Shown: piece by piece, positions 3,901 through 27,930 of the stretch | Numbering within the stretch: position 1 is the stretch's first letter | How the letters are laid out: each line of letters starts with the position of its first letter | Assembly (NCBI RefSeq): GCF_000372725.1 | Contig: NW_005202427.1 | Span: forward strand, 1,028,459-1,092,458 | Direction: 5' to 3' | Source of the DNA: Emiliania huxleyi CCMP1516 | Taxonomy: Eukaryota | Length of the DNA: 64,000 nt | The notes under the pieces: model-generated | Told to the model about the DNA's origin: nothing | Seen by the model: only the letters and a program-made list of their open reading frames with translations | Databases searched by the model: none | Made by a program: the position numbers and the translations under genes

Positions 3901-4870
3901 CGCGTCCTCTCCCCGCCGCGCCCTCTCCCCCGACGCATCCCCCCCCCCCCCCCCCCCCCCTCCAAACAGGTGATCCACTCCGTGCCGTACTGCATGAATG
4001 GGTGGACGGCCTGCCCGGGGCACACGATGCCGTGCATGTGCTTGACCTTTGCGCTGACGTCGCTCACCATGTTCAGCCTCTTCATCCTGAAGCACGGATG
4101 CTTCATGTTCCCGTGCCTCTGCAAGGAGGAAGTGCGCGGCTGGCGCCCTGTAGCACTTGCAGCCCTGCCACCCACGCCCCACCTCGGCCCAGCCACCTCG
4201 GGCCATCTCCCACCTCGGGCCACCTCGGGCCACCTCGGGCCACCTCGGGCCACCTCGGGCCACCTCGGGCCACCCACGCCCCACCTCGGCCCCGGCGGGC
4301 GCCTCGCTGAAGCCCTGTCGTGGCGCACACACTCAGCGGTGCCGCCACCTCTTCGCCCCCACCCAGGTCCCCGGCTGGCTCTTCTTCCCCTCCTCCACGG
4401 CGCTCACCTCGCCGCTGCGAGGCATCTTCGAGACGTCTTGAACGAAGATTCAGTTAACTATCAATTGTGACAACGACTACTACGACTAGGTATCTTCGAC
4501 GTCAACCTGTGGTTCTTCGAACGGCCCGTCACGCGGCTGATCGACTGGTTCACCGCAGCCGCGTGGGACGACGACTGCCGGTGGGAGCCGACGGCGAGCA
4601 GCTTCAAGTCGCAGGCCTTCATGTGGCGCGTGTGGCGCGTCACCGGCACGCGCCCCCCCTCGGGCCGGCGTCGGCTCTCTCCGCTCGACGCCGCAACGTC
4701 GCGCGACTGTTGCGACCTTAGGCATCGGCCCCGATGAGTGCCTCAAGCCTACATACGGCGGCTGCAGCGACCCGTGCGCGCGCCACGCCGCCCCGGGCGC
4801 GGGGCGATGCAGCACTGCCAAGCTGACGCCCGCTCGCCTGCGCCGCTCTAGGTGGGAGAGGGACGACACT
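979..4870 (+). CDS. Multi-exon multipass membrane protein of unknown function; linkage of the 979-1420 helical exon is uncertain
   Basis: Hydrophobic exons such as VALAVEIIITCMELLYLD, AYITFMAPVIFHVVYSGE and YLWFAFIVIFSIFLTFKSWFSILWIWVVPFSMFYY are separated by AG-terminated pyrimidine-rich introns. Confidence 0.5.
2168..2275 (+). repeat. Intron-resident dispersed repeat (second copy 3478-3603, partial copy 1703-1730)
   Basis: Shared tttgaatgccgtggg..tagacgtggagtcgcgaggg..gtgtggagaag. The two longer copies each end at an acceptor cacAG. Confidence 0.8.
4180..4291. repeat. 10-bp tandem minisatellite (gccacctcgg) in an intron
   Basis: Directly visible tandem array. Confidence 0.9.
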
Positions 4871-5381
4871 CTGGCTGATGAGGAGGTGAACGGCGGTTCA
4901 CTGGGGACGCTCGGCGGCTTTGACAACCAGCGGCAGGGATGAGGCCCCCGGTCGAGATACGTACGGCTCTATGTACGCGTCTTTTCTTTGTGTAGCATTG
5001 GAAGTAGGATTAGGGCCAGCACCGCAGGGGGGGGATGACCGTTGTATAGTGTGTACCATTTGGGCAAACGGCGCGATACGAAAAGGCAGGGCGAGGCGGA
5101 TGGAGAAAGGAGTACCGAAAAGGCAGTGGAGGAGGGGGGGTGGCGGGTGGAGCTGGAGGGACAGGGGTCAGGGCCGGACGACACGAGGGCGAGATGACGA
5201 GCGCCGAGCGGCCCGCACAGACCGCAAGCAGACAGCGCCTGCTGGTCATTTCGAGGCATTCGCAAAGAACGCTAGCTACATGGGGAAGGATGGATTGACA
5301 ATCATACGAACAAAGAATAGAGGCGACGGCAGGTAGGAGCCGGCAGAGGATGCAGTGACGTGACCCCCTCCCCCCCTTTCT

Positions 5382-5383
<2 letters not shown>

Positions 5384-5420
<37 letters not shown>

Positions 5421-5426
5421 ACACAG

Positions 5427-5490
<64 letters not shown>
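5384..5490. repeat. (CA)n microsatellite
   Basis: Directly visible. Confidence 0.95.
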
Positions 5491-5491
<1 letters not shown>

Positions 5492-6975
5492 GCTCACACC
5501 CACGCGCACTGGCACGACACTCTCTCTCGCAGCACACTGGCACGACAAGGGCGTGGACTGGCGCACACTAGCACACACATCGGCACATAAAACAGAGGTA
5601 GAGGATTCCTTGAAATATGTCCATGTGCTTGACGTCCGCTTGTGAGCTATGCAGAGGAGCAGAGCACGCCGCATGCTCCGCAGCTCATCGTCTTTACTGC
5701 AGCCGGCGCCGTCCTTGTCGTCGCCCCTGCTGCCGGCGGCCTCGCTGCCGCCGCCGATAGCAGCTGGCCGCTGCTACCAGCGTCACCGGCGGCACGTAGC
5801 CGTCGCTCATCTTCCCTTGGCGTGCCGCCGCCGCTTTGCCACCGCCGTCCCGAGCGCGTCGGCTTTTCCCTCCACGTCCGCTCGGCGTCGTCTGCCTTGG
5901 CGGAAGCACCGCCTCCGCCATCAGGGTCGAGAGCGATGGGAGAGAGCCTCCCAGTCCCAAGGGGCAGGCCCGGTAGAGGGGGTGTTGCGCGATTCCAGTC
6001 ACGGTAGAGGGGGCGGCGCGGCGGCGGGGGTGGCGGCCGTTGGCGGGGACGGCGATGAAGGAGGTAGAGGGAGTGAAGGAGGTAGAGGTTGCGCACCGGT
6101 GGAGGGGGCGGTGGCGGCGGGGGACGGGTGTGGCGGCCGTCGCTGCCGCGGATGTGGCGGCGGCGGGGGCGGTGGAAGACGAGGCGGGCGACGCTGATGC
6201 GGGCCCCAACATACAGTGGTGGTACCGAAGCCCGCGAAAGGCACGGCGGCGACGCGGCGTTGCAGCTCTCCCATCTTCCCTTTTAGCTCTTCGATCCGCG
6301 AGATTGCGTAACTCCTCGATCCGTTTGTTGATCCCGCGCCGCAGATTCTGCTCCGACCCTCTCCCGTTGCTCCTCGGTTAGCGTGGCTCCAGGCGGCACC
6401 AATGGCCTCACAATGTGGCAGGTGATGAATACCATGGCGCGCAACAACAAGCGCGCTACTACTCGCCCGAAGAGTTGCGCGAGGAGTATGTGCGAGCTGT
6501 ATTCGAGAGCTGCGACTTTGGCGGCACCGAGGAGGTGACCACGCTGTGTACTACATTGCCAAGGGCATGGTGAAGGGAGGGCGCGCTGCGGATGACTGTT
6601 TCTCGAGTGGGGTGAAGTGGACCGAGTGGAGGCGAGGAGGCGACGGAGTCGACGGCGGCTGGCCAGGTCAGGCAGCGCGCATGTGTTACACCGGGTGTGG
6701 GGACGCATGTGACAACGCTAAACCGCGACAAAGCAAGAACCAACGCACTCTCTCATGACAAGTCATGGGATCCCACGACAGCGGTGGTGTGTGTGTGTGT
6801 GTGTGTGTGTGTGTGGTGTGGGGTGAAGGGGGATGGGGGGGCGTGTACTAGATTTTTGCGGCAGCGTCTCTTCCCCCGCAGACCTTTAATTGTCTGTCGC
6901 CACCCCCAGGGTGCGGTAAATGTTTTTCTTCGCGCGGCGTCTCGTAGTCCCCGGGAAGAACGTCGGATAGAAGCC

Positions 6976-16063: not shown

Positions 16064-19000
16064 CTAGACCGCCGGCAGCGTCACGCCCGCGGCGGCCGCC
16101 GTGCCCACCTCCGCCTCGACCTCCCCGGCGACGGCCCAGAGCGACACGTCCGGCCAGCGCGTCCGCAGTACTGCCAGCACCTTGAGTCGAGGACGCGCGT
16201 TATCAGCCCCGTGTGCAGAGTGGAGGAGTCCGGAGGGGCGGAGGGGCGGCCGGCACCTTCGGGCCCGCCACCCGGTCCACCCGCCGCGCGACCGGCGCGG
16301 GCAAGTCTGCGTATCGCATCCACACCGTCCAGCCGGCCTCCTGCTGCGCCTGCGCGGGGCCGCGTGGAGACCAGCTCAATCGACGGCTCAAGGCCCTGCC
16401 CCTTGGTCCGTGGCCTGTTTGGTGGGAAGGCGAGGGCAGACACCGGGCGGGGAGACCGCTCGTCCGCATCTCTACTGTCTCGCGTCTGCTGCCTATGTGT
16501 GTATCGGATAGTATATCGGAGGGGCGAATCCAACACTTCTAGCGGCCGTAGATGAAGATAGGCTGCTGCACCTGGCCGCAGAACTTGCAAGCGGCGGCGG
16601 CGGGCGCGGGGTTCTCGCCGAAGCACATCGTCTTGAAGCGCGAGTTGTAGCAGCTCGCACAGCGCCACGCCTAGGGAAGTGTCTAGGAAGTGTCTAGGAA
16701 GTGTCTAGGAAGTGTCTAGAGCAGCTCGCACAGCGCCACGCCTCCCCCGCCGCCGGAGGAGTGAGTCGACATCATCCGCCGAGCTACGCCGAGGTTCGAC
16801 GAGACTCGACGAGAAGGTTCGCCGAGTTCGCCGAGATTCGCCGAGATTCGCCCAGCTCCGCCGAGGTCCGCCGAGAGGCTGCACCTCCCCCGCCGCCGGA
16901 GGAGGGCCCTGCGGCAGCAGCGTCGGCGGAGGCGCGTCGGGCGGCCGAGGGGCCGAGGCGACGTCCTCTTCCGCCACCGCCTGGCGGGAGGAGGGGGGCG
17001 GGCTGGGGCGGGGAGGGGGTGGGGGGGGGTGGGTGGTGGGGGTGGTGGGTGGTGGGAGGGGAGCTGCAGCCGGGCGAGGGGCCTCGTCTCCTCTCCCCTC
17101 CCCTCTAGAGCTGCGCGTCTTCTCTTTTGCCCCCCGCCGCAGGAGGAGGACCCGTCGTCGCGGCGGAGAGCAAGAAATGAGCAGACAGGACTGCAGGCGC
17201 GCTCCCGGTACTCATTCTTGGCTCTCATCAGCAGGGAGTACTCATCAGCAGGCAATACTACAGCCATCGCACACCTTCGTCACGAGGGAGAGCTCGTACC
17301 GGTGCTCGCGCCACGCCGCCGGCAGGGAGGCCTTGTCCTCCTTGGCTGCCTGCACCGCCGGGAGGAGTGCGGCGGAGTAGCCTCAGCGCTGCCTCCCTCT
17401 GCCAGCTCGGCCTCCCTCCTCCTCCAAAGCCGCGCGCATCTCGTGCCACATCTCCGCCCGCATCTCCGCCCGCATCTCGGCTCTACCTCGGCCTGCACGA
17501 CCGACTCGACCTCCCCCACACTCAGTCGCCAGTGCGATGGCGTGAGCGACGGAGGCGCCGGGGCGGCGGGAGCGAGTGCATCGCCCACCCCGCGCAGGCG
17601 CAACCACCGCAGCCCGCGCGCCGGCGGCAGCCCGTTCCTAGTGAGCAGGCCACGGCCTGGTCGATCCAATCATCCACAGCAGACCCCGCCGCCCGCGGGC
17701 AGCGCAATGCCAGAGCGCGAGATCGACCGCCCCTTGCGTGACGGGCGGCGGCGGGGCGGCCTGCAGCTCCGCCGTCGCCGCCTCCACCGCCTCCGCCGCG
17801 GCGGAGTTCGCGTCTCCTCCGCTTCCTCCGCCGCGCGCAGACGCGAAGAGCGCCCTGACGCGGGCCTGAGGGGGCGAGCGAGAGGACGGGTACGGCCCCG
17901 CCCCACCGAAGTCTGAGGAGCAACTACGGGTGGTTGAAGACCGGCCGAATGAGCACTGCACCGCTCCACACTGGCGCGAGGGGCGACGCGCGCCTCGAAG
18001 CGCTCTTTGGCCGGCAGCGGGACCCAGGCCACGGTGAAATGGTCCCCGCCGTGCAGCACGTACACGGGCAGCGGAGGAGACTTGAGCGGGTCGGCGAGGG
18101 GGACGCCTGAGGGAATGGAGCAAACAGAGGGCTGGGTGTTGTCACGACGTCACGCACGACTCGAGCGGCTCCGCGAGGGCGGCCGCCCGTCTCGAGCTCG
18201 TCGCGGGAGAGGAGGCCGAAGGGCGAGGGCTCGCGCCATGTCACCTGCCGGGGACATGTGTCAGGGAGGTGTCAGGGGGGTGTCAGGGGGGTGTCAGGGA
18301 CGTGTCAGGGAGGTGTCAGGGAGGTGTCAGGGAGGTGTCAGGGAGGTGTCCAGAGGGCCGGCCGGGCGGGGGCGCCAGTCCCGCGTTGCTTCTTCTCGCG
18401 TGTGGGCGACCGAGTGTGGCTCGCTATGGGGGAGATATGGGGGAGATATGGGGAGATGTGGGCGAACGAGTGTGGCCCTTTGCGCGACCGGCCACGCACC
18501 AAGCCACGCAGCAGCAGGGGGAGAGGATCTGGCACGCAGAGCCGCCGCCGCCCACACCGCTACCCGCATCGCCGCTACGACGTCGCTACGCCGTCGCTAC
18601 GCCGTCGCTATGCCGCCGCTACGCCACCACCGCCACCACCACCACCGCCGCCACCGCGACTGCCACACTGCCACCGCCACTGCTATCGCCACCGCCACCG
18701 CCGCCACCGCCACCGCTACCCGCCGCCACCCGCCGCCACCCGCCGCCACCCGCCTGCCGCGTCTGGGGCGGTGTCACCTTGGCGCCGTCCTGGCCGTAGG
18801 CGCCGACGTTGCCGCGCGCCCGCCCCGCCATGAGGAGAGTCATCAGCTCGGTGCCTGCAGGGGGAGATTCGGGGAGATATGGGGGAGAGTCATCAGCTCG
18901 GTGCCTGCAGGCCGGACATGTCCGAGAAGGCGGGTCCGAGAGACAGGTCCGAGAAGGCTCATGAGGCGCGCGCGCTCCTCCGGTCTCGGCCAGAGGCTCG

Positions 19001-19821
19001 GCTAGGGCCAGTCTCGGCCAGTCTCGGCCAGTCTCGGTCAGGCTCGGCTCGGCTCGGCCAGGCTCGGCTCGTCTCGGCCATCGCCTCGTCTCGGCTATGA
19101 GTGTGCCGCAGAGAGCGTGCGGCCCGGCGATCAGAGGTCCGCTGCCGTTGTCGAGCGCCACATCCGCCCTCACCGCCTCGACGCCTCGCGTCAGCACGCA
19201 CGCGTAGCAGAGCAGCACGACGCCGCCCTTCTGCCGCAGCGCCGGCATCAGGGGCGCGAGATTGGCGGCGACGGAGGCGGCGCCATCCGCCGCGAACGAC
19301 TCTGTCACGATCGGGCCGCCGACGGCGCCTTCCCACCGCGCGAGCACCACCTCCTGCGCGACCGACTCCTTTGCACCCGCGGGCGCGTCGGCGGAGGCGC
19401 AGCGCCAGAGGATGGCTGCGAGGGCGGCGCGGAGGTCTGCCTCCGTCGCCGCCGCCGAAGGAGGAGGGCACCCCTTCTGCGCGAGGAGCTCGGCGTTGAC
19501 CGCCGCGAGGACGCCGCACGGACCGTTCTTGCCCTGCAGCAGGCCGCAACGGCTCTCGGGCGCTGCGGAGAACTCGAAGCCCTGCTCGATCCATGGCGGT
19601 GGCGCCGCCTCGGAGCCGAAGAGCGCGGCGTGCGCCGGAGTGCCGGCGTGCGCGGTGCCGCCGCCGCCGCCGCCGCCGCCAGCAGCGACGGCTGCCGGCT
19701 CGCCTTCGGCCATGCTGAAGAACAACTGCACGGCCATCTCAACGTCACCGCCGGCCATCTCGAGGTAGCTGGCCGCCTGGGCGGGGTCGAGGCCCGTGAT
19801 GGCGGCCACCGAGTCCGCCAT
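16064..19821 (-). CDS. MINDY-3/4 (FAM188/DUF4205)-like deubiquitinase with N-terminal UBA-like domain and C-terminal Cys-rich Zn-finger-like motif, multi-exon
   Basis: AITGLDPAQAASYLEMAGGDVEMAVQLFF (UBA-like), GLLQGKNGPCGVLAAV (catalytic Cys), GTELMTLLMAGRARGNV, VLHGGDHFTV (catalytic His) and WRCASCY..CKFCG. Confidence 0.8.
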
Positions 19822-19828
19822 ACACACC

Positions 19829-19987
19829 CTGCAGTGCGAACCTTTCGCCCGCTCGCGGCGTTGTGTCCCCGGTTTTTCTTTTTTGCTCCTTCGACCTTCC
19901 GGCCTCCGGGCTGGTCTTTTCGGACACGAGTCGTCGGTCCAGTTGTACAACTTATCCAAAACACACCCCCTAGATCTTATTGGTGTC
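19829..19987 (-). promoter_or_regulatory. 159-bp promoter/5'UTR-like segment P, copy 1 (copies 2 and 3 at 23184-23342 and 26239-26397)
   Basis: Three near-identical copies (one substitution seen), each immediately upstream of a minus-strand ATG. Contains CCAAT on the minus strand. Confidence 0.75.
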
Positions 19988-20216
19988 GATGCTCGGTATA
20001 CGGTATGCCGTACACCTTCGACGTACACCTGCTACTTCCAGTATTGATTGTACAAACGACCTCCCGTCGAGAGGTTCCGCACGGTGGTCGGACAGTAGAC
20101 CTTCCGCAACATGCTCGCGCATCCCGGTCGGTGCACCCTAAGCACTCGAAACGTACTGGGACAGAGCTCCTGTCGGGACCCGACCCTGATCCCTGAGCTC
20201 CTAGCGGCGGGCTCGC
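19988..20216. repeat. 229-bp 3' flank of the AP2-SAM unit, duplicated at 23343-23571
   Basis: Apparently identical direct repeat. Confidence 0.9.
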
Positions 20217-22732
20217 TCATGGCGGCGCGAAGCCGAACTTGACAAACCTGCCCGCGTGCCCGGGCTTCATCCCCGTCTCCTTGGCCACGTCCGCCCGCTC
20301 GGCGGCGTCCAGTCCGCGCAAGAACGAGATGTCGTCGTAGCCCTCGGCGTCAAAGGCGGCGGCGTAGGCCTGCAGGTTGATCTGCGCCAGCGCCGCGGCG
20401 ACGGCCGCCATGCCGCCCGTGGGGGGAGGGGGCGTCTCCCTCAGCACGGTGCGCCCGTCCGGCGTGGTCGTGAACAGGCGGCTCGAGAGCGGGGAGGGGC
20501 CGGCAGGGGCGGCAGTGGAGGTGGAGGCGGAGGCAGTGGAGGTGGAGGTGGAGGCGGCGGTGCGGGCGGCGGTGGCGGGCGCGGCCAGTGCGGTGGGTGC
20601 GGTGGGTGCGGTGGCGGTGGTGGCGGCGGAGGAGGAAGAGGAGGAGGCGGCGGCAAGGGTGGAGGAGGAGGCAGCCGAGGGTGCGGCGGCGGCGGCGCGG
20701 CTTGAGCGCCGCTTCGGCAGCGGCGCGTCGGTCGGCTCGAGCGGGCGCTTTGCTGGACGGGGCCTGGCGCCGCTGCCGCCGGCAGCGGAGTCGGCGGTGG
20801 CGGAAGAGGAGGAGCGGTCCGGCGCCTGCCCGACCGCCCGCGCGAACGCCACCGCCGCCTCCACCGCGGTGTCGAAGATGCCGACGTGGACCCTCCTTCC
20901 GCCCACATAGTGCGCTGCCTCGAAGCGGCCTTTGATTTGCTTGACCACCCCCTTGTAGCCGGTGGCGTTGCTGCTGGAGAGGTGCAAGCGCAAGCCCTCC
21001 GCCTCCGTCGCCACAGTCGGAGGAGCCGGAGGCTGGTACTCGCCGACTGCTCGCGCGTACGCCACTGCCGCCTCCACCGCTGTATCGAAGTCGCCTAGTC
21101 TGACCTTCCTTCCGTCCACCCTGTGCCGCGCCTGGAAGCGGCCAGCCTGCGCGGTGCTCTTGGTCACGCCCATGTAGCCGGTGCTGTTGCTGCTGGACAA
21201 ATGCAGACGCAAACCCTCCGCGACCGCCACGCGCGCCTCCGCTGCCGCCGCCGCTCCCTCCTCCAGCAGCGCCGGCTCTTCTGCCCCTGCCGCCGCCACC
21301 GCGCCCGCCTCCTCCTCCACCACCGGCTCGGCAGCGGCTGCGCCTTCTGCCGCCTCGCCCAGCGGTGCTGCCGACGCCTGCCCTGCTGCTGCTGCCACCG
21401 CCGCGCCCGCTTCCGGCGCCTCGCCGACCGCGCGCGCGTACGCCACCGCCGCCTCCACCGCGGTGTCGAAGAGGCCGAGGAAAGCCAGCCCTCCGTCCAC
21501 CCTGTGCTGCGCCTGGAAGCGGCCGGAGTTGTGCCTAGTCAGCCCCTTGTAGCCGGTGGCGTTGCTGCTGGACAAATGCAGCCGCAGCCCCTCTGCCTCC
21601 GTCGCCACTGTCGGAGGAGCCGGAGGCTGGTACTCGCCGACTGCTCGCGCGTACGCCACCGCCGCCTCCACCGCCGTGTCAAAGTGGCCGATGGCGACCT
21701 GCCTGTTGTGCACCCTGTGCCGCGCCTGGTAGCGGCCAGACTGGTTCTTGAACACGTTCTTGTAGCCGGTGACGTTGCTGCTCGAGGGGTGCAGCCTCAG
21801 CCCCTCCGCCTCCTCCACATGCGCCTCCGCTGCCGCCGCATCCGCCGCCGCCGCTCCCTCCTCCAGCATCGCACCGGCGCCATCAGCACAGAGCTCCGCC
21901 TCGTCGTCGCCCTCGCCTCCGCCGCCGCCCGGCTCGACTGATCCGCCTGCCTCCGTCGCGGTGCTGGCCGCTTTCGCGATGAATCTTCCGTTGTCAAAGT
22001 CGTACCGGAGCGGCGCCGTGTACTCGGCCGACAGCAAGGCTGCTCTCCGGCGCGCCATATCCAGCGCAAGGAGGCTAGTGGCGGAGCGCGGCGATCCTGC
22101 CTTGAGCATCGCGAGCAGCGAGCGGCACTTGCGCGCGTCCACATGCACAAACTTGCCCGCGGAGAGCGAGGCGAGGGCGGTGTAGAAGCCGAGCTTGCCG
22201 TGCTTCGCGAGCTCGGAACACACCGGCTGCCCGATACCCCTATACTTGTGCGTGAAGAGCCAGTAGATCTGCGCCGCGTCGGCGACCGTGAGCGTGACCG
22301 GCGGAGCGGCGTACTTTTCCGGGTTGGACATCATGGCGCGGAGGTTCGACACTGCCCGGCTGTCTGGGTCGAGCAGGGGCAGCGCCGCATCATCGGCGCT
22401 GTCGGCGCTGGAGATCCCGCCGCCGACGTCAGCAGGCGCAAGAGCCGACAGCACGTGGGCGGCCGAGCGGCCGGCTGCGGGCGGTGTTGGCGCGCGTGCC
22501 TGAGCCGCCGGGGTTGTCACGAAGGCGGGAGGAGCGGTAATGACGGGCGTAGCAGCCGCCGGCTCCGGCTCGTCGTCGCTATCCAGCTCCATCGGACACG
22601 CTGCGCTGATTCCCGGCAGTGCGGCCTCGCCACCGCCACCGCTGCCGCCGCCACTGCTGCCGCCGCCGCTGCCGTCCCCGCCACCGCCGGCCTCCTCGTC
22701 GCCGCCCTCGCCCTCTCCGCCCTCGCCGCCCG

Positions 22733-22794
<62 letters not shown>

Positions 22795-23180
22795 ACCGCC
22801 TCGGCAGTGGCAGTGCTTGCCACCGCTTGAGTGCCCGCCTCTGCAGCCGCAACGCCGGCGGCGGGCACAGGCGGCCCCTCGCTAGGCGCGGCGTCCGCGA
22901 GCTCTTTGAGGCGGAGCGAGCACTTCTGCTTCTCCTCGTTCCAGACCAGCACCAGGCAGGAGGCCCCCGCCTTCATCTGTGCCTTGACGATGCAGCTCCC
23001 GCAGTCGCACGGCATTTGGAGCCGCAGCGTGTGCGGCTCCGCTTTGGGCTCGAGGGTGAGGCGGAGCTTTCGGAGGTGCGGGGCGGCTGCGCTCTCCCTG
23101 TCAAGCGCGCGGGCGAGCCGCCCGCTCTCCGCGAGGCTCTGCCAGGAGAGCGCCGCCGGCTGCGTCCTATCCGCCATCAT
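20217..23180 (-). CDS. Intronless multi-AP2-domain protein (4 AP2 modules) with C-terminal SAM-like domain
   Basis: Four copies of GYKGV..GRFQA.H....LG.FDTAVEAAVAYARAV. C-terminal LAQINLQAYAAAFDAEGYDDISFLRGL..GMKPGHAGRF is SAM-like. Confidence 0.85.
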
Positions 23181-23571
23181 ATTCTGCAGTGCGAACCTTT
23201 CGCCCGCTCGCGGCGTTGTGTCCCCGGTTTTTCTTTTTTGCTCCTTCGACCTTCCGGCCTCCGGGCCGGTCTTTTCGGACACGAGTCGTCGGTCCAGTTG
23301 TACAACTTATCCAAAACACACCCCCTAGATCTTATTGGTGTCGATGCTCGGTATACGGTATGCCGTACACCTTCGACGTACACCTGCTACTTCCAGTATT
23401 GATTGTACAAACGACCTCCCGTCGAGAGGTTCCGCACGGTGGTCGGACAGTAGACCTTCCGCAACATGCTCGCGCATCCCGGTCGGTGCACCCTAAGCAC
23501 TCGAAACGTACTGGGACAGAGCTCCTGTCGGGACCCGACCCTGATCCCTGAGCTCCTAGCGGCGGGCTCGC

Positions 23572-26235
23572 TCATGGCGGCGCGAAGCCGAACTTGACAA
23601 ACCTGCCCGCGTGCCCGGGCTTCATCCCCGTCTCCTTGGCCACGTCCGCCCGCTCGGCGGCGTCCAGTCCGCGCAAGAACGAGATGTCGTCGTAGCCCTC
23701 GGCGTCAAAGGCGGCGGCGTAGGCCTGCAGGTTGATCTGCGCCAGCGCCGTGGCGACGGCCGCCATGCCGCCCGTGGGGGGAGGGGGCGTCTCCCTCAGC
23801 ACGGTGCGCCCGTCCGGCGTGGTCGTGAACAGGCGGCTCGAGAGCGGGGAGGGGCCGGCAGGGGCGGCGGTGGAGGTGGAGGCGGAGGCGGTGGAGGTGG
23901 AGGTGGAGGCGGCGGCGCGGGCGGCGGTGGCGGGCGCGGCCAGTGCGGTGGGTGCGGTGGGTGCGGTGGCGGTGGTGGCGGCGGAGGAGGAAGAGGAGGA
24001 GGCGGCGGCAAGGGTGGAGGAGGAGGCAGCCGAGGGTGCGGCGGCGGCGGCGCGGCTTGAGCGCCGCTTCGGCAGCGGCGCGTCGGTCGGCTCGAGTGGG
24101 CGCTTTGCTGGGCGGGGCCGGGCGCCGCTGCCACGGCCGGAGGAGGAGGAGAAAGGCAGCGGAGCCGGGCGAGGAAGCGCAGCCTCTGCCTGGCGCTCCG
24201 GCGCCTCGCCGACCGCCCTCGCGTACGCCACTGCCGCCTCCACCGCCGTGTCGAAGGAGCCCAAGTAGACCACCCTCCCGCCCACGCTGTGCCGCGCCTG
24301 GAAGCGGGCGTTGTCTTTGTACACGCCCTTGTAGCCGCTCGGGTTGCTGCTGGAGAGGTGCAAGCGCAAGCCCTCCGCCACCGCCGCCACTGCCGGAGGC
24401 TGGTACTCGCCGACCGCGCGCGCGTACGCCACCGCCGCCTCCACCGCCATGTCAAAGAGGCCGAGCGAGACCTCCCTCCTGCCCACCCGGTGCCTCGCAT
24501 GGAAGCGGCCGGATGGGTGCTTGTGCACGCCCTTGTAGCTGGTCACGTTGCTGCTGGAGAAATGCAGACGCAGCCCCTCCGCCACCTCCGCCACGGGCGC
24601 CGCCGCTGCCGCCGCCGCCGCCGCCGCTCCCTCCTCCAGCGGCGCCGGCTCTTCTGCCGCCGCCGCCGCCGCCGCGCCCGCCTCCTCCTCCACCGGCGGC
24701 TCGAAAGCGGCTGCGCCTTCTGCCGCCTCACCCAGCGGTGCCGCCGACGCCTGCCCTGCTGCTGCTGCCACCGCCGCGCCCGCTTCCGGCGCCTCCCCGA
24801 CCGCCCGCGCGTACGCCACCGCCGCCTCCACCGCGGTGTCAAAGAGGCCGACGTGGACCCTCCTTCCGTCTCTCCCTCGGTGCGATGCCTGGAAGCGGCC
24901 ACCGTGATGCTTAGTCACGCACTTGTAGCCGGTGATGCCGCTCGAGAGGTGCAAGCGCAGCCCCTCCGCCTCTGTCGCCACCACCGGAGGAGGCTGCGCC
25001 GGAGGCTGGTACTCGCCGGCCGCCCGCGCGTACGCCACCGCCGCCTCCACCGCTGTATCGAAGGAGCCGATGGAGACCCTCCTTCCGCCCACACAGTGCT
25101 GCGCGTCGAAGACGTCGCGGCCCTTTCGCGAGTCCTTGTGCACCCCCTTGTAGCCACTGCTGCTGCTGCTAGACAAATGCAGACGCAAGCCCTCCGCCTC
25201 CTCCGCCAGGGGCGCCTCCGCCGCCTCCGCCACGGGCGCCTCAGCTGTCGCCGCACCCGCCGCCGCCGCCGCTCCCTCCTTCAGCGGCGCCGTCTCTTCT
25301 GCTCCTGCCGCCGCCGCCGCCGCGCCCGCCGCCTCCGCCTCCACCGGCTCGGCAGCGGCTGCGCCTTCTGCCGCCTCACCCAGCGGTAGCGGTGCCGCTG
25401 ACGCCTGCCCTGCTGCTGCTGCGACCGCCGAGCCCGCTTCCGGCGCCTCGCCGACCGCGCGCGCGTACGCCACCGCCCCCTCCACCGCGGTGTCGAAGAG
25501 GCCGAAGTATGCTTTCCTTCCGTCCACCCTGTGCCACGCCTCGAAGCGGCCGGAGTTGTGCTTGACCACCCCCTTGTAGCCGGTGGCGTTGCTGCTCGAG
25601 AGGTGCAAGCGCAATCCCTCCGCCTCCGCCGCCACAGTCGGAGGAGCCGGAGGCTGGTACTCGCCGACTGCTCGCGCGTACGCCACCGCCGCCTCCATCG
25701 CCGTGTCGAAGTGGCCGAGCGACACCTCCCTTCCGCCCACCTTGTGCTTCGCCTGGAAGCGGCCAGAGTGGTGCTTGTGCACGCCCTTGTAGCTGGTCAC
25801 GTTGCTGCTGGAGAAATGCAGACGCAGCCCCTCCGCCTCCTCCGCCACGGGTGGCGCCGCTGCCGCCGCCGCCGCTCCCTCCTCCAGCGGCGCCGGCTCT
25901 TCTGCCCCTGCCGCCGCGGGCACAGGCGGCCCCTCGCTAGGCGCGGCGTCCGCGAGCTCTTTGAGGCGGAGCGAGCACTTCTGCTTCTCCTCGTTCCAGA
26001 CCAGCACCAGGCAGGAGGCCCCCGCCTTCATCTGTGCCTTGACGATGCAGCTCCCGCAGTCGCACGGCATTTGGAGCCGCAGCGTGTGCGGCTCCGCTTT
26101 GGGCTCGAGGGTGAGGCGGAGCTTTCGGAGGTGTGGCGCGTCTGCGCTCTCCCTGTCAAGCGCGCGGGCGAGCCGCCCGCTCTCCGCGAGGCTCTGCCAG
26201 GAGAGCGCCGCCGGCTGCGTCCTATCCGCCATCAT
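23572..26235 (-). CDS. Intronless multi-AP2-domain protein (6 AP2 modules) with C-terminal SAM-like domain; tandem paralog
   Basis: Six AP2 modules. About 105 N-terminal and about 170 C-terminal residues are nearly identical to 20217-23180. Confidence 0.85.
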   Translation of the reverse strand: MMADRTQPAALSWQSLAESGRLARALDRESADAPHLRKLRLTLEPKAEPHTLRLQMPCDCGSCIVKAQMKAGASCLVLVWNEEKQKCSLRLKELADAAPSEGPPVPAAAGAEEPAPLEEGAAAAAAAPPVAEEAEGLRLHFSSSNVTSYKGVHKHHSGRFQAKHKVGGREVSLGHFDTAMEAAVAYARAVGEYQPPAPPTVAAEAEGLRLHLSSSNATGYKGVVKHNSGRFEAWHRVDGRKAYFGLFDTAVEGAVAYARAVGEAPEAGSAVAAAAGQASAAPLPLGEAAEGAAAAEPVEAEAAGAAAAAAGAEETAPLKEGAAAAAGAATAEAPVAEAAEAPLAEEAEGLRLHLSSSSSSGYKGVHKDSRKGRDVFDAQHCVGGRRVSIGSFDTAVEAAVAYARAAGEYQPPAQPPPVVATEAEGLRLHLSSGITGYKCVTKHHGGRFQASHRGRDGRRVHVGLFDTAVEAAVAYARAVGEAPEAGAAVAAAAGQASAAPLGEAAEGAAAFEPPVEEEAGAAAAAAAEEPAPLEEGAAAAAAAAAAPVAEVAEGLRLHFSSSNVTSYKGVHKHPSGRFHARHRVGRREVSLGLFDMAVEAAVAYARAVGEYQPPAVAAVAEGLRLHLSSSNPSGYKGVYKDNARFQARHSVGGRVVYLGSFDTAVEAAVAYARAVGEAPERQAEAALPRPAPLPFSSSSGRGSGARPRPAKRPLEPTDAPLPKRRSSRAAAAAPSAASSSTLAAASSSSSSAATTATAPTAPTALAAPATAARAAASTSTSTASASTSTAAPAGPSPLSSRLFTTTPDGRTVLRETPPPPTGGMAAVATALAQINLQAYAAAFDAEGYDDISFLRGLDAAERADVAKETGMKPGHAGRFVKFGFAPP

Positions 26236-26413
26236 ATTCTGCAGTGCGAACCTTTCGCCCGCTCGCGGCGTTGTGTCCCCGGTTTTTCTTTTTTGCTCCT
26301 TCGACCTTCCGGCCTCCGGGCCGGTCTTTTCGGACACGAGTCGTCGGTCCAGTTGTACAACTTATCCAAAACACACCCCCTAGATCTTATTGGTGTCCTA
26401 GGAATATCCGCCA

Positions 26414-27930
26414 TCATATTGCAATATGTAGAGCAGCTAAAAAAGAAAAAAACGACCGGGCAGCAGCTGAACTGTGTGTGAACTCGACTCGAGCACTCTC
26501 CAGCCCCTGCGCCCACACCTCAACCTTCTTGGGCAGCAGCTGGTTCGACTCGTCCTCTCCGTGGCCTAGGCGGCCATATTCGCCCTTGCCCCAGGTAAAG
26601 ACGGCGCCGTCAGCGGTGAGGGCGAGGTTGAGGTCGCCTCCGGCCGACGTAGCGACGACGCGCTGACCAGCAAAGGCCTCGATCTTCTTTGGCTGCCACT
26701 GGGCCGCATAGTCGCCGTGGCCCAACTGGCCGCGCCCTCCAAAGCCCCAGCTCCAGATGGCGCCGTCAGCGGTGAGGGCGAGGCTGTGGTCGCCTCCCGC
26801 CGACGTAGCGACGACGCGCCGGCCAGCAAAGGCCTCGATCTTCTTGGGCTGCCACTGGGCCTGCCCGTCGCCGTGGCCCAAATGCCCGCTCCCTCCAAAG
26901 CCCCAGCTCCAGACGGCGCCGTCGGCGGCGACGGCGAGGCTGTGGCTGTATCCAGCCGACACAGCGACGACGCGCTGACCAGCCAACGCCTCGATCTTCT
27001 TGGGCAGCGGCTGCTTTTGCTGGTCGCCGTGGCCCAACCGGCCAAGGTCTCCGCGGCCCCAGCTCCAGACACTGCCGTCGGCGGAGATGGCCAGACTGTG
27101 GTCCTCTCCAGCCGACACAGCGAGAACGCGCTGGCCAGCCAACGCCTCGAGCTTCTTGGGCAGCAGCTGGTTCTGCCAGGGCAGCAGCAGGTTCTGCCGG
27201 TCGCCGTGGCCCAGCCGGCCTTCGTGACCATAGCCCCAGCTCCAGACGGTGCCATCGGCGGTGAGGGCGAGGTTGTGGTCGCGTCCCGTCGACACGGCGA
27301 CGACGCGCCACCCAGCAAAGGCCTCGATCTTCGTCGGCTGCCACTGCTCCTCCTCGTCGCCGTGGCCCAGCCGGCCTTTAACTCCACGGCCCCAGCTCCA
27401 GACAGCACCGCCGGCAGTGAGAGCGAGGCTGTGCGCGTCTCCAGCCGACACGCTCACAGCGCGCTCTCCCAGCGTCGAGGGAAGGCGGGTCGGCGTATTG
27501 AGCCGCGCCACGCCCTCGCCGTGACCGAGCAGCCCTGGAGAGAACGACGGTGCAGAACCGCACGACGAGAGCCGCCCCTCGCCGTCGACGAAGACGCTGT
27601 GCCGATCGTCTGCCGCCGCCCTTGCCGGCGGGTTGGACTCGCAAAGCAGCGCCGACAAGCACAGCCATCGCACGGCGCAGCTCTCGCCCTCTGGCTGCGC
27701 CGGCAGCTCGTAGCCGCGCTCTTGCGCCCGCAAGCGGATGCCCTCCTTCGCAAGCGAGGCGTGGAAGAGCAGCGAGACGGCCGCGACGCGAGCGATGTCG
27801 ACGGGGTCGCAGCGAGAGACGACGCGCACGAGGAGGTCGGTGGGGAGGTCGAGGAGGCGGGTGGGCGGCGGCGTGTCTGGCGAGGGAGCGGCGGTGGCGG
27901 CGGTGGCGAGGCGGCGCGGCGGGGTGCACG
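26414..27930 (-). CDS. F-box + RCC1-repeat protein (7 blades); native ATG appears lost, possible pseudogene
   Basis: LLDLPTDLLVRVVSRCD F-box motif and seven HSLALTADGAVWSWG..GRLGHGD-type repeats. Confidence 0.8.

What the first reader, a model, noticed from the sequence alone, without database searches (positions are those of the whole stretch)
20217..26235. Modular AP2-array + SAM proteins with variable DNA-contacting strands: candidate diversifying DNA-recognition system
Seen: two intronless paralogs with near-identical N-termini (including CDCGSC), C-termini and flanks, but different cores (4 vs 6 AP2 modules). Modules come in doublets joined by a conserved GEYQPP..AEGLRLHLSS linker. The helix (FDTAVEAAVAYARAV) is almost invariant, while beta-strand/loop residues differ among modules (FKNQSGRYQAR, TRHNSGRFQAQ, VKQIKGRFEAA, HKDSRKGRDVFDAQ, YKDNARFQAR). 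Established: AP2 domains read DNA through the three-stranded sheet, and SAM domains oligomerise. Inference: a KRAB-ZNF/TALE-like repertoire in which module shuffling and sheet substitutions retarget a constant effector, possibly against transposons or viruses.
Basis: partly seen in the sequence, partly recalled or inferred. Interest (0 to 1): 0.85.

Follow-up and report, generated by a model that had tools for sequence, protein, structure and literature searches.

The report
Shuffled AP2 DNA-reader arrays in coccolithophore
Two side-by-side genes of a bloom-forming marine alga (Emiliania) share almost identical ends but carry different strings of small AP2-type modules whose predicted DNA-touching positions change far faster than the rest, so they are likely part of a large, fast-retuning family of DNA readers, though what they bind is untested.

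Summary
Two intact tandem genes (987 and 887 aa) have flanks about 99% identical but 4 versus 6 AP2-like modules that are only 75-88% identical between the genes. Gene A matches the Emiliania huxleyi model EMIHUDRAFT_199717. The AP2/ERF expansion in this alga is published, but only as a gene count. Added here: (1) the hypervariable positions are those that read DNA in AtERF1; 204 different six-residue codes occur among 222 family modules, against a nearly fixed helix. (2) Codon models give omega 1.3-1.8 at these positions (p<0.05 in 8 of 11 non-independent fits) and 0.03-0.09 in the helix. (3) One related gene occurs in six versions with different arrays behind a near-identical N-terminus. (4) A subfamily shares an undescribed N-terminal domain and a C-terminal SAM-like domain, with variable AP2 and chromatin-reader cassettes between them. 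A constant effector holds only for that subfamily: 130 of 142 relatives show neither end, many being fragments. DNA binding, SAM oligomerisation and transposon or virus targets are untested. It evolves like PRDM9/KRAB-ZNF arrays but is not a member. New variant of a known kind; interest 0.62.

The parts
20217..23180 (-). Gene A, 987 aa: N-terminal domain, low-complexity region, A-specific insert, 4 AP2-like modules, SAM-like domain. Same gene as model EMIHUDRAFT_199717 (P0004)
23572..26235 (-). Gene B, 887 aa: same N-terminal domain, 6 AP2-like modules, same SAM-like domain; no exact record in the protein collection
22899..23147 (-). N-terminal domain of A (aa 12-94): undescribed, predicted small beta-rich domain with a conserved PCxC motif
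25954..26202 (-). N-terminal domain of B (one residue differs from A)
21972..22361 (-). A-specific insert of about 130 aa, no Pfam family; weak likeness to a stretch of family member P0021
21426..21809 (-). A doublet 1 (modules 21639-21809 and 21426-21596)
20832..21221 (-). A doublet 2 (modules 21045-21221 and 20832-21002)
25453..25836 (-). B doublet 1 (modules 25666-25836 and 25453-25623)
24799..25197 (-). B doublet 2 (modules 25018-25197 and 24799-24969)
24211..24582 (-). B doublet 3 (modules 24412-24582 and 24211-24378); modelled as two three-strand-plus-helix AP2 domains
20700..20750 (-). Basic KR..KRR patch after the array (B copy 24055-24105); likely nuclear localisation signal (inference)
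20220..20417 (-). SAM-like domain of A
23575..23772 (-). SAM-like domain of B (one residue differs from A)
19830..19987 (.). Repeat R, copy 1: the DNA just upstream of the MINDY gene
23185..23342 (.). Repeat R, copy 2: upstream of gene A, at the junction of the tandem units
26240..26397 (.). Repeat R, copy 3: upstream of gene B; the three copies differ at 1 of 158 positions
26405..26420 (-). 16-nt remnant of the gene start: either a collapsed third copy or a target-site duplication around R

Best explanation
These two genes are tandem copies from a subfamily of the large Emiliania AP2 family, and they likely encode nuclear DNA readers whose targets are retuned by swapping and mutating AP2 modules inside a constant frame (an undescribed N-terminal domain and a SAM-like C-terminal domain). 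Shown: architecture, AP2 homology and fold, near-identical flanks around divergent cores, hypervariability at positions matching AtERF1's DNA-reading residues, strong purifying selection on the helix, different arrays behind near-identical N-termini, and transcription of gene A. Supported but not proven: positive selection at those positions, and recombination between modules. Inferred: each module or doublet binds a short DNA motif through its sheet; near-identical helix, linker and spacer DNA serves as the recombination anchor; SAM self-association adds avidity as in LEAFY; the output is a chromatin change, since relatives carry CW, Tudor, PHD, PWWP, chromo, SET or MBD-like domains. The pace points to fast-changing targets such as repeats, transposons or viral DNA, but no call tests the target.
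For: AP2: the module profile hits WRI1 (E 5.5e-8), ERF096, AtERF1 and TEM1; the top 9 Foldseek rows for a doublet model are AP2 domains; 10 of 10 modules hit phage HNH families, best phrog_99 at 6.7e-12. Variation: among 230 unique modules, positions matching AtERF1 150/152/160/162/170/172 have 2.9-3.8 bits and helix positions 178-188 have 0-0.54; 204 distinct codes among 222 gap-free modules; 18 of 18 DNA-level modules have distinct codes. Selection: omega at these sites is 1.29-1.79 in all 11 fits, p<0.05 in 8; helix 0.03-0.09. P0016 versus P0168: 4 changes in 128 doublet residues, 3 of them at the 12 contact sites, hypergeometric p 0.002. Exchange: helix-linker block 88-97% and spacer blocks 92-98% identical while most sheet blocks are 61-85%; PHI-like p 0.010 and 0.046; six versions of one related gene. 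Frame: N-terminal domain + AP2 + SAM in P0002, P0009, P0010, P0016, P0078 and L002, and in P0168 by alignment. Expression: run X7 holds pieces with 0-1 differences across 21655-22673 and is spliced at the neighbouring MINDY intron.
Against: No binding data. The canonical plant readers are mostly lost (W172 in 1 of 222 modules, R152 in 19 of 222), so binding may be weak, non-canonical or absent. Omega is not significantly above 1 in 3 of 11 fits (p 0.057, 0.11, 0.13); the fits share data, use my own script without simulation, and recombination can inflate such tests. The six sites were fixed from AtERF1 but after I had seen the entropy table. Exposed sheet faces vary in many domains. 130 of 142 relatives show neither frame domain. 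SAM and AP2 scores are below Pfam cut-offs. The doublet model is low-confidence (pLDDT 55, single sequence). Metagenome versions could be assembly chimeras at the near-identical linkers. Expression of B was not tested.
Confidence: 0.6

Rival explanations
1. Ordinary lineage expansion of AP2/ERF transcription factors. The sheet positions vary because they are exposed and under relaxed constraint, and module number changes by neutral unequal crossing-over in a GC-rich repeat.
For: The expansion is published (PMC4827209: 58 AP2 + 99 ERF, 33% of the transcription factors). Star-tree fits are not significant. Omega of 1.3-1.8 lies close to 1.
Against: Ala/Glu-rich spacers stay 92-98% identical while sheet blocks beside them are mostly 61-85%. 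Changes between close versions fall on the contact sites. Omega is above 1 in all 11 fits, including the 8 modules from outside the window.
Confidence: 0.22
2. The modules bind something other than chromosomal DNA motifs (RNA, proteins, or free viral DNA as a sensor), and the SAM domain signals or polymerises on binding.
For: Plant-type Arg/Trp readers are mostly absent. The SAM's nearest solved relatives are signalling scaffolds such as ANKS1B and Caskin. Toxoplasma mitoribosome chains appear as weak rows after the AP2 rows in the fold search. Some relatives carry ankyrin, SH2, FHA or RING domains.
Against: The Arg at position 156 and the Tyr at 146 and 186 are conserved, as expected for backbone contacts (role recalled). 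The commonest partner domains are chromatin readers and writers. A basic patch follows the array.
Confidence: 0.1
3. A and B are two alleles of one locus joined in tandem by the assembler through repeat R, which lies on both sides of a single copy.
For: R flanks each unit and is 158-173 nt long, the flanks are 99% identical, no laid contig spans the stretch, and B has no protein record.
Against: In DNA run X4, exact A-specific pieces have depth 57-63, like the MINDY contig (56), while a SAM piece has 279 and the B-type variant at 20514 has 201 of 285. So several near-identical ends coexist with a full-depth A (contig depth is a rough guide only). The 16-nt remnant suggests an earlier third copy. 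Even if true, this changes the copy number, not the diversification.
Confidence: 0.15
4. The unit is a mobile element or its cargo, and the AP2 array recognises the element's own ends.
For: The modules score best against phage HNH endonuclease families. Direct repeats flank each unit; there is a 16-nt duplication and a 14-nt palindrome at the upstream edge.
Against: No nuclease, transposase or integrase domain in A, B or the 58 relatives scanned. The 25 longest of 867 inverted repeats are low-complexity and none marks the unit ends. R is host DNA upstream of MINDY. The module pattern scans found 1 distant locus in viral contigs and none in prokaryote genomes.
Confidence: 0.05

Closest known systems
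Emiliania huxleyi AP2/ERF expansion (PMC4827209; UniRef 'AP2/ERF domain-containing protein', EMIHUDRAFT_199717)
   Same: Gene A is one of these records; same species and domain.
   Different: The passages read report counts only: no arrays, doublets, contact-site diversity, shuffling, N-terminal domain or SAM. The gene model removes four in-frame stretches, three boundaries of which RNA contigs cross unspliced.
Plant AP2/ERF domains (AtERF1 1GCC, ERF096 5WX9, WRI1 7WQ5, TEM1 7ET4)
   Same: Three-strand sheet plus helix; best solved matches by sequence and fold; WRI1 also has two domains.
   Different: One or two domains with conserved Arg/Trp readers, against up to 12 modules with hypervariable readers and an extra EGLRLHLSS leader here.
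Apicomplexan ApiAP2 (PMC2965767)
   Same: Protist expansion; tandem double domains with a short conserved linker; different domains bind different motifs.
   Different: 27 proteins with 1-3 domains described as highly conserved; no near-identical scaffold with recent shuffling reported in the passages read.
PRDM9 zinc-finger array (PMC2779102) and KRAB-ZNFs (recalled)
   Same: Concerted evolution of the scaffold, positive selection on DNA-contact residues, changing module number, constant effector ends.
   Different: AP2 rather than C2H2 modules; no KRAB or PR/SET in A or B; modules sit in doublets separated by 60-70-residue spacers; targets unknown.
LEAFY (PMC4844672)
   Same: A SAM domain joined to a DNA-binding domain; there, oligomerisation gives access to low-affinity sites and closed chromatin.
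   Different: LEAFY is a single conserved gene with an N-terminal SAM and an unrelated DNA-binding domain; oligomerisation is untested here.
Phage HNH(-AP2) endonucleases (phrog_99, 953, 4578)
   Same: Best profile matches for single modules, including the N..GYKGV entry; a plausible source of the domain.
   Different: No nuclease domain; the leader and the doublet linker were not found in viral or prokaryote contigs.

Membership tests
AP2/ERF domain superfamily | Sequence homology to AP2 domains | tested here: met
   Profile versus PDB E 5.5e-8 to 1.1e-4 for five AP2 proteins; 4 of 10 modules hit PF00847
AP2/ERF domain superfamily | Pfam PF00847 gathering score (33.3 bits) | tested here: not met
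   Best single module 25.9 bits; no whole-protein hit for A or B. Relatives pass, e.g. P0002 at 87.9
AP2/ERF domain superfamily | Three-stranded sheet packed on one helix | tested here: met
   The model shows EEE-H twice; top 9 Foldseek rows are AP2; low confidence, pLDDT 55
AP2/ERF domain superfamily | Sequence-specific DNA binding | not testable with these tools
   Needs PBM, DAP-seq or EMSA
Plant ERF (GCC-box) subfamily | R150, R152, R170 and W172 readers conserved | tested here: not met
   R150 34, R152 19, R170 32, W172 1 of 222 modules; residues named in PMC3602543
SAM domain | Homology to SAM domains | tested here: met
   SAM_1 E 0.004, below cut-off, 3 of 4 members; profile versus PDB best ANKS1B E 7e-5
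SAM domain | Self-oligomerisation | not tested
   No complex prediction or experiment was run
KRAB-ZNF / PRDM9 | C2H2 zinc-finger array with KRAB or PR/SET | tested here: not met
   No such Pfam hit in A or B
KRAB-ZNF / PRDM9 (works like) | Positive selection on DNA-contact residues | tested here: inconclusive
   Omega 1.29-1.79 in 11 fits, p<0.05 in 8; leans positive
KRAB-ZNF / PRDM9 (works like) | Homogenised scaffold and changing module number | tested here: met
KRAB-ZNF (works like) | Targets are transposons; recruits silencing | not testable with these tools
   No target data; no genome held
TALE | Contiguous repeats with one repeat per base and two variable residues | tested here: not met
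   Modules are AP2 domains with six or more variable sites, in spaced doublets
HNH-AP2 homing endonuclease | HNH nuclease domain | tested here: not met
   No HNH hit in A, B or 58 relatives

The most novel reading that the evidence does not exclude
Emiliania has independently built a KRAB-ZNF-like genome-defence repertoire from a phage-type AP2 domain: hundreds of recombining modules with a readable six-position code steer a SAM-polymerising, chromatin-silencing frame to transposons and giant-virus DNA, and differ between strains.
Probability: 0.3. Interest if true: 0.88.

Novelty: new variant of a known kind. Interest (0 to 1): 0.62.

Why it matters
AP2/ERF genes make up about a third of this alga's transcription factors (PMC4827209), and the passages read give no reason for the expansion. 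If the modules are retunable readers under selection, the expansion is a conflict-driven repertoire in a major bloom species, not a count of ordinary regulators. It would also give a natural library of more than 200 AP2 variants on a fixed scaffold, which makes an AP2 recognition code directly testable, and it adds an undescribed N-terminal domain.

Tried and rejected
No whole genome is held, so there is no genome-wide census, synteny check or target search. Pfam on the whole proteins gave only weak hits to DUF4106, SOG2 and KTSC, rejected. The ESM Atlas gave no usable hit for the N-terminal domain and only scores under 0.9 for the A insert. The N-terminal domain has no Pfam or PDB sequence match; its model (pLDDT 84) has no Foldseek match at E 0.001 or better, and its best VIA Z is 3.3 among Ig/Fn3-like sandwiches, which shows neither a fold nor a new fold. 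A zinc site is not claimed: PC is invariant but the other cysteines lapse in distant members. Module scans found one distant viral locus (L006, not studied) and nothing in prokaryote genomes. Raw RNA run X17 gave 16 partial reads under 95% identity, so no evidence. Gene B and the start of A were not covered by reads. The module tree is mostly star-like with low support and was not used to order events. The inverted-repeat search gave low-complexity pairs. The chromatin-evolution preprint 10.1101/2021.11.30.470311 has no AP2 passage. No complex prediction was run.

Full report
Observation. The window holds two open frames on the minus strand, gene A (20217-23180, 987 aa) and gene B (23572-26235, 887 aa). 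They form tandem units of 3355 and 3055 nt. The first 324 nt differ at 3 positions and the last 913 nt at 6. Between these flanks A has a G/E-rich stretch, an insert of about 130 aa and 4 modules; B has 6 modules. Modules of A versus B are 75-88% identical in DNA. A 158-nt repeat R, the DNA upstream of the neighbouring MINDY-3/4 gene, occurs three times with one variable position. A 16-nt copy of the gene start lies upstream of the third R (3 matches in the window, 0 expected). The simplest history is an array of three units whose first copy was deleted; an insertion of R with a target-site duplication is the alternative (inference).

Identity. Gene A matches the named record EMIHUDRAFT_199717 of Emiliania huxleyi in five blocks that cover all 635 residues of that record; the model removes four in-frame stretches. 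B has no exact record. The whole proteins give no Pfam AP2 or SAM hit. Single modules hit AP2 in 4 of 10 cases, below the cut-off. A profile of the ten modules hits WRI1, ERF096, AtERF1 and TEM1, and all 10 modules hit phage HNH endonuclease families. A single-sequence model of one doublet (pLDDT 55) shows three strands and a helix twice, and its top 9 Foldseek rows are AP2 domains. The C-terminus is SAM-like. The N-terminal domain is found in 23 clusters among 1.84 billion representatives, 17 at E 1e-10 or better; one weak hit (P0075) looks unrelated and one (P0076) was not inspected. Its named members are all from E. huxleyi. It folds confidently (pLDDT 84) into a small beta-rich domain without a clear structural match.

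Family. A module profile finds 724 proteins at E 1e-5 or better among 7983 candidates scored; 120 were listed. Named hits are from E. huxleyi and Chrysochromulina. Of the 142 proteins retrieved by the two module-driven searches, 5 have both the N-terminal domain and SAM, 5 SAM only, 2 the N-terminal domain only and 130 neither; many are fragments, and module number runs from 1 to 12. Partner domains include CW, PWWP, PHD, chromo, SET, RING, GNAT, ankyrin, SH2 and FHA above Pfam cut-offs, and Tudor below. Within the framed subfamily the interior also varies: CW in P0078, Tudor-like in P0016 and L002, MBD-like in L005 (the last two kinds are below cut-off). So the constant part is a frame, and it belongs to a subfamily.

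Where the variation lies. I numbered the modules on AtERF1 from the alignment. R150, R152, R170 and W172 are named as GCC-box binding residues in PMC3602543 (passages); E160 and R162 are recalled. Among 230 unique near-full-length modules scoring 75 bits or more (P0004 left out as the same gene as A), these six positions have 2.9-3.8 bits. Inward positions 146, 149, 157, 159, 174 and 176 have 0.04-0.45 bits, and helix positions 178-188 have 0-0.54. 204 of 222 gap-free codes are distinct, while 142 of 230 helices are identical. Positions 153, 158 and 175 are also highly variable.

Selection. DNA was available for 18 modules (10 from the window, 8 from L002, L003 and L005). Pooled pN is 0.56 at the six sites and 0.04-0.05 in the helix, against an overall pS of 0.29-0.31. 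Partitioned codon models (my own script, F3x4 frequencies, shared synonymous rate) give omega 1.29-1.79 at these sites in 11 fits. p is below 0.05 in 8 fits, including sheet-only, non-window-only and the four literature sites alone; it is 0.057, 0.11 and 0.13 in the others. Helix omega is 0.03-0.09 and sheet core 0.09-0.20. The fits overlap in data, were not checked by simulation, and recombination can bias them. An independent tree-free check: P0016 and P0168 differ at 4 of 128 doublet residues, 3 of them at the 12 contact sites (p 0.002).

Shuffling. Across the five doublets the helix-linker block is 88-97% identical and the spacer blocks of A12, B12 and B34 are 92-98%, while most sheet blocks are 61-85%; nearest partners change along the doublet. 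A PHI-like test gives p 0.010 (10 modules) and 0.046 (18), though clustered conservation can mimic this. A related gene occurs in six versions with near-identical N-termini. P0016 and P0168 have two modules then Tudor-like and SAM; P0169 and P0109 share module 1 but differ in module 2; L002 has another module 1, Tudor-like and three more modules; L003 has yet another module 1. L002 and L003 differ at 5 of 6 contact residues in module 1. These come from metagenome assemblies and some may be chimeric at the linkers.

Expression and assembly. Four of 18 listed runs were laid on 18500-22700. X7 (labelled RNA by guess) and X11 (RNA) both stop at 19103, where a spliced MINDY transcript would stop matching at a GC-AG intron, whereas DNA run X4 reads through. 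X7 has no depth at 19769-20050, where X4 does, and holds pieces with 0-1 differences tiling 21655-22673 that cross three boundaries of the model's introns. Gene A is therefore transcribed, at least partly unspliced; only the best-supported joints were shown, so spliced forms are not excluded. In X4, A-specific pieces have the same depth as MINDY, a SAM piece about five times that, and module bins up to 35,000; contig depth is no copy number, but it fits many related copies.

Mechanism. Most likely each module or doublet reads a short motif through its sheet, conserved helix and linker DNA lets modules recombine, selection favours new contact residues, and the frame turns binding into a chromatin effect, with SAM adding avidity as in LEAFY (PMC4844672, abstract). 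The pattern matches that reported for PRDM9 (PMC2779102, abstract). Tandem AP2 doublets with distinct motifs are known in ApiAP2 (PMC2965767, passages). Binding, oligomerisation and targets are inferred, not shown.

Novelty. The expansion is published (PMC4827209, passages), which cites an earlier report that I did not read. Searches listed no paper whose title or abstract start describes arrays, contact-site diversity or the frame; I opened only PMC4827209, PMC12220804 (one passage) and the chromatin preprint from them. Subscription papers and supplements were not seen. Verdict: a new variant of a known kind, interest 0.62.

Noticed in passing
window 18622-19821 (-): UBA-like + MINDY-3/4 deubiquitinase gene with a GC-AG intron starting at about 19106; the intron end is duplicated, giving two possible acceptors near 18904 and 18855.
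   Followed up: partly
window 26405-26428: The 16-nt gene-start remnant overlaps a perfect 14-nt palindrome (26415-26428), which could be a hairpin-type repair or excision footprint.
   Followed up: partly
window 26570-27460 (-): RCC1-repeat gene directly upstream of gene B.
   Followed up: partly
window 21972-22361 (-): The A-specific insert has diverged copies in runs X4 and X11 and a weak match in family member P0021: possibly a second mobile domain of the family.
   Followed up: partly
window 20051-20332: The 3' end of gene A draws very high summed contig depth in RNA-type run X7 (4752-6234 versus about 53 for MINDY) with small insertions, suggesting that many expressed paralogs share this end.
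   Followed up: no
P0074, P0077: Distant forms of the N-terminal domain are joined to ankyrin-like repeats (and a CCHC knuckle in P0077) without AP2 modules.
   Followed up: partly
L005:96-505: The N-terminal domain is interrupted and partly duplicated across frames, probably by introns; the same protein carries an MBD-like stretch.
   Followed up: no
P0091: A 1980-aa relative with seven precomputed Pfam families, including AP2, CW, Myb, SET and chromo (names of accessions partly recalled).
   Followed up: no
L006:5001-5153: A viral contig with a distant AP2-like match (40% identity).
   Followed up: no
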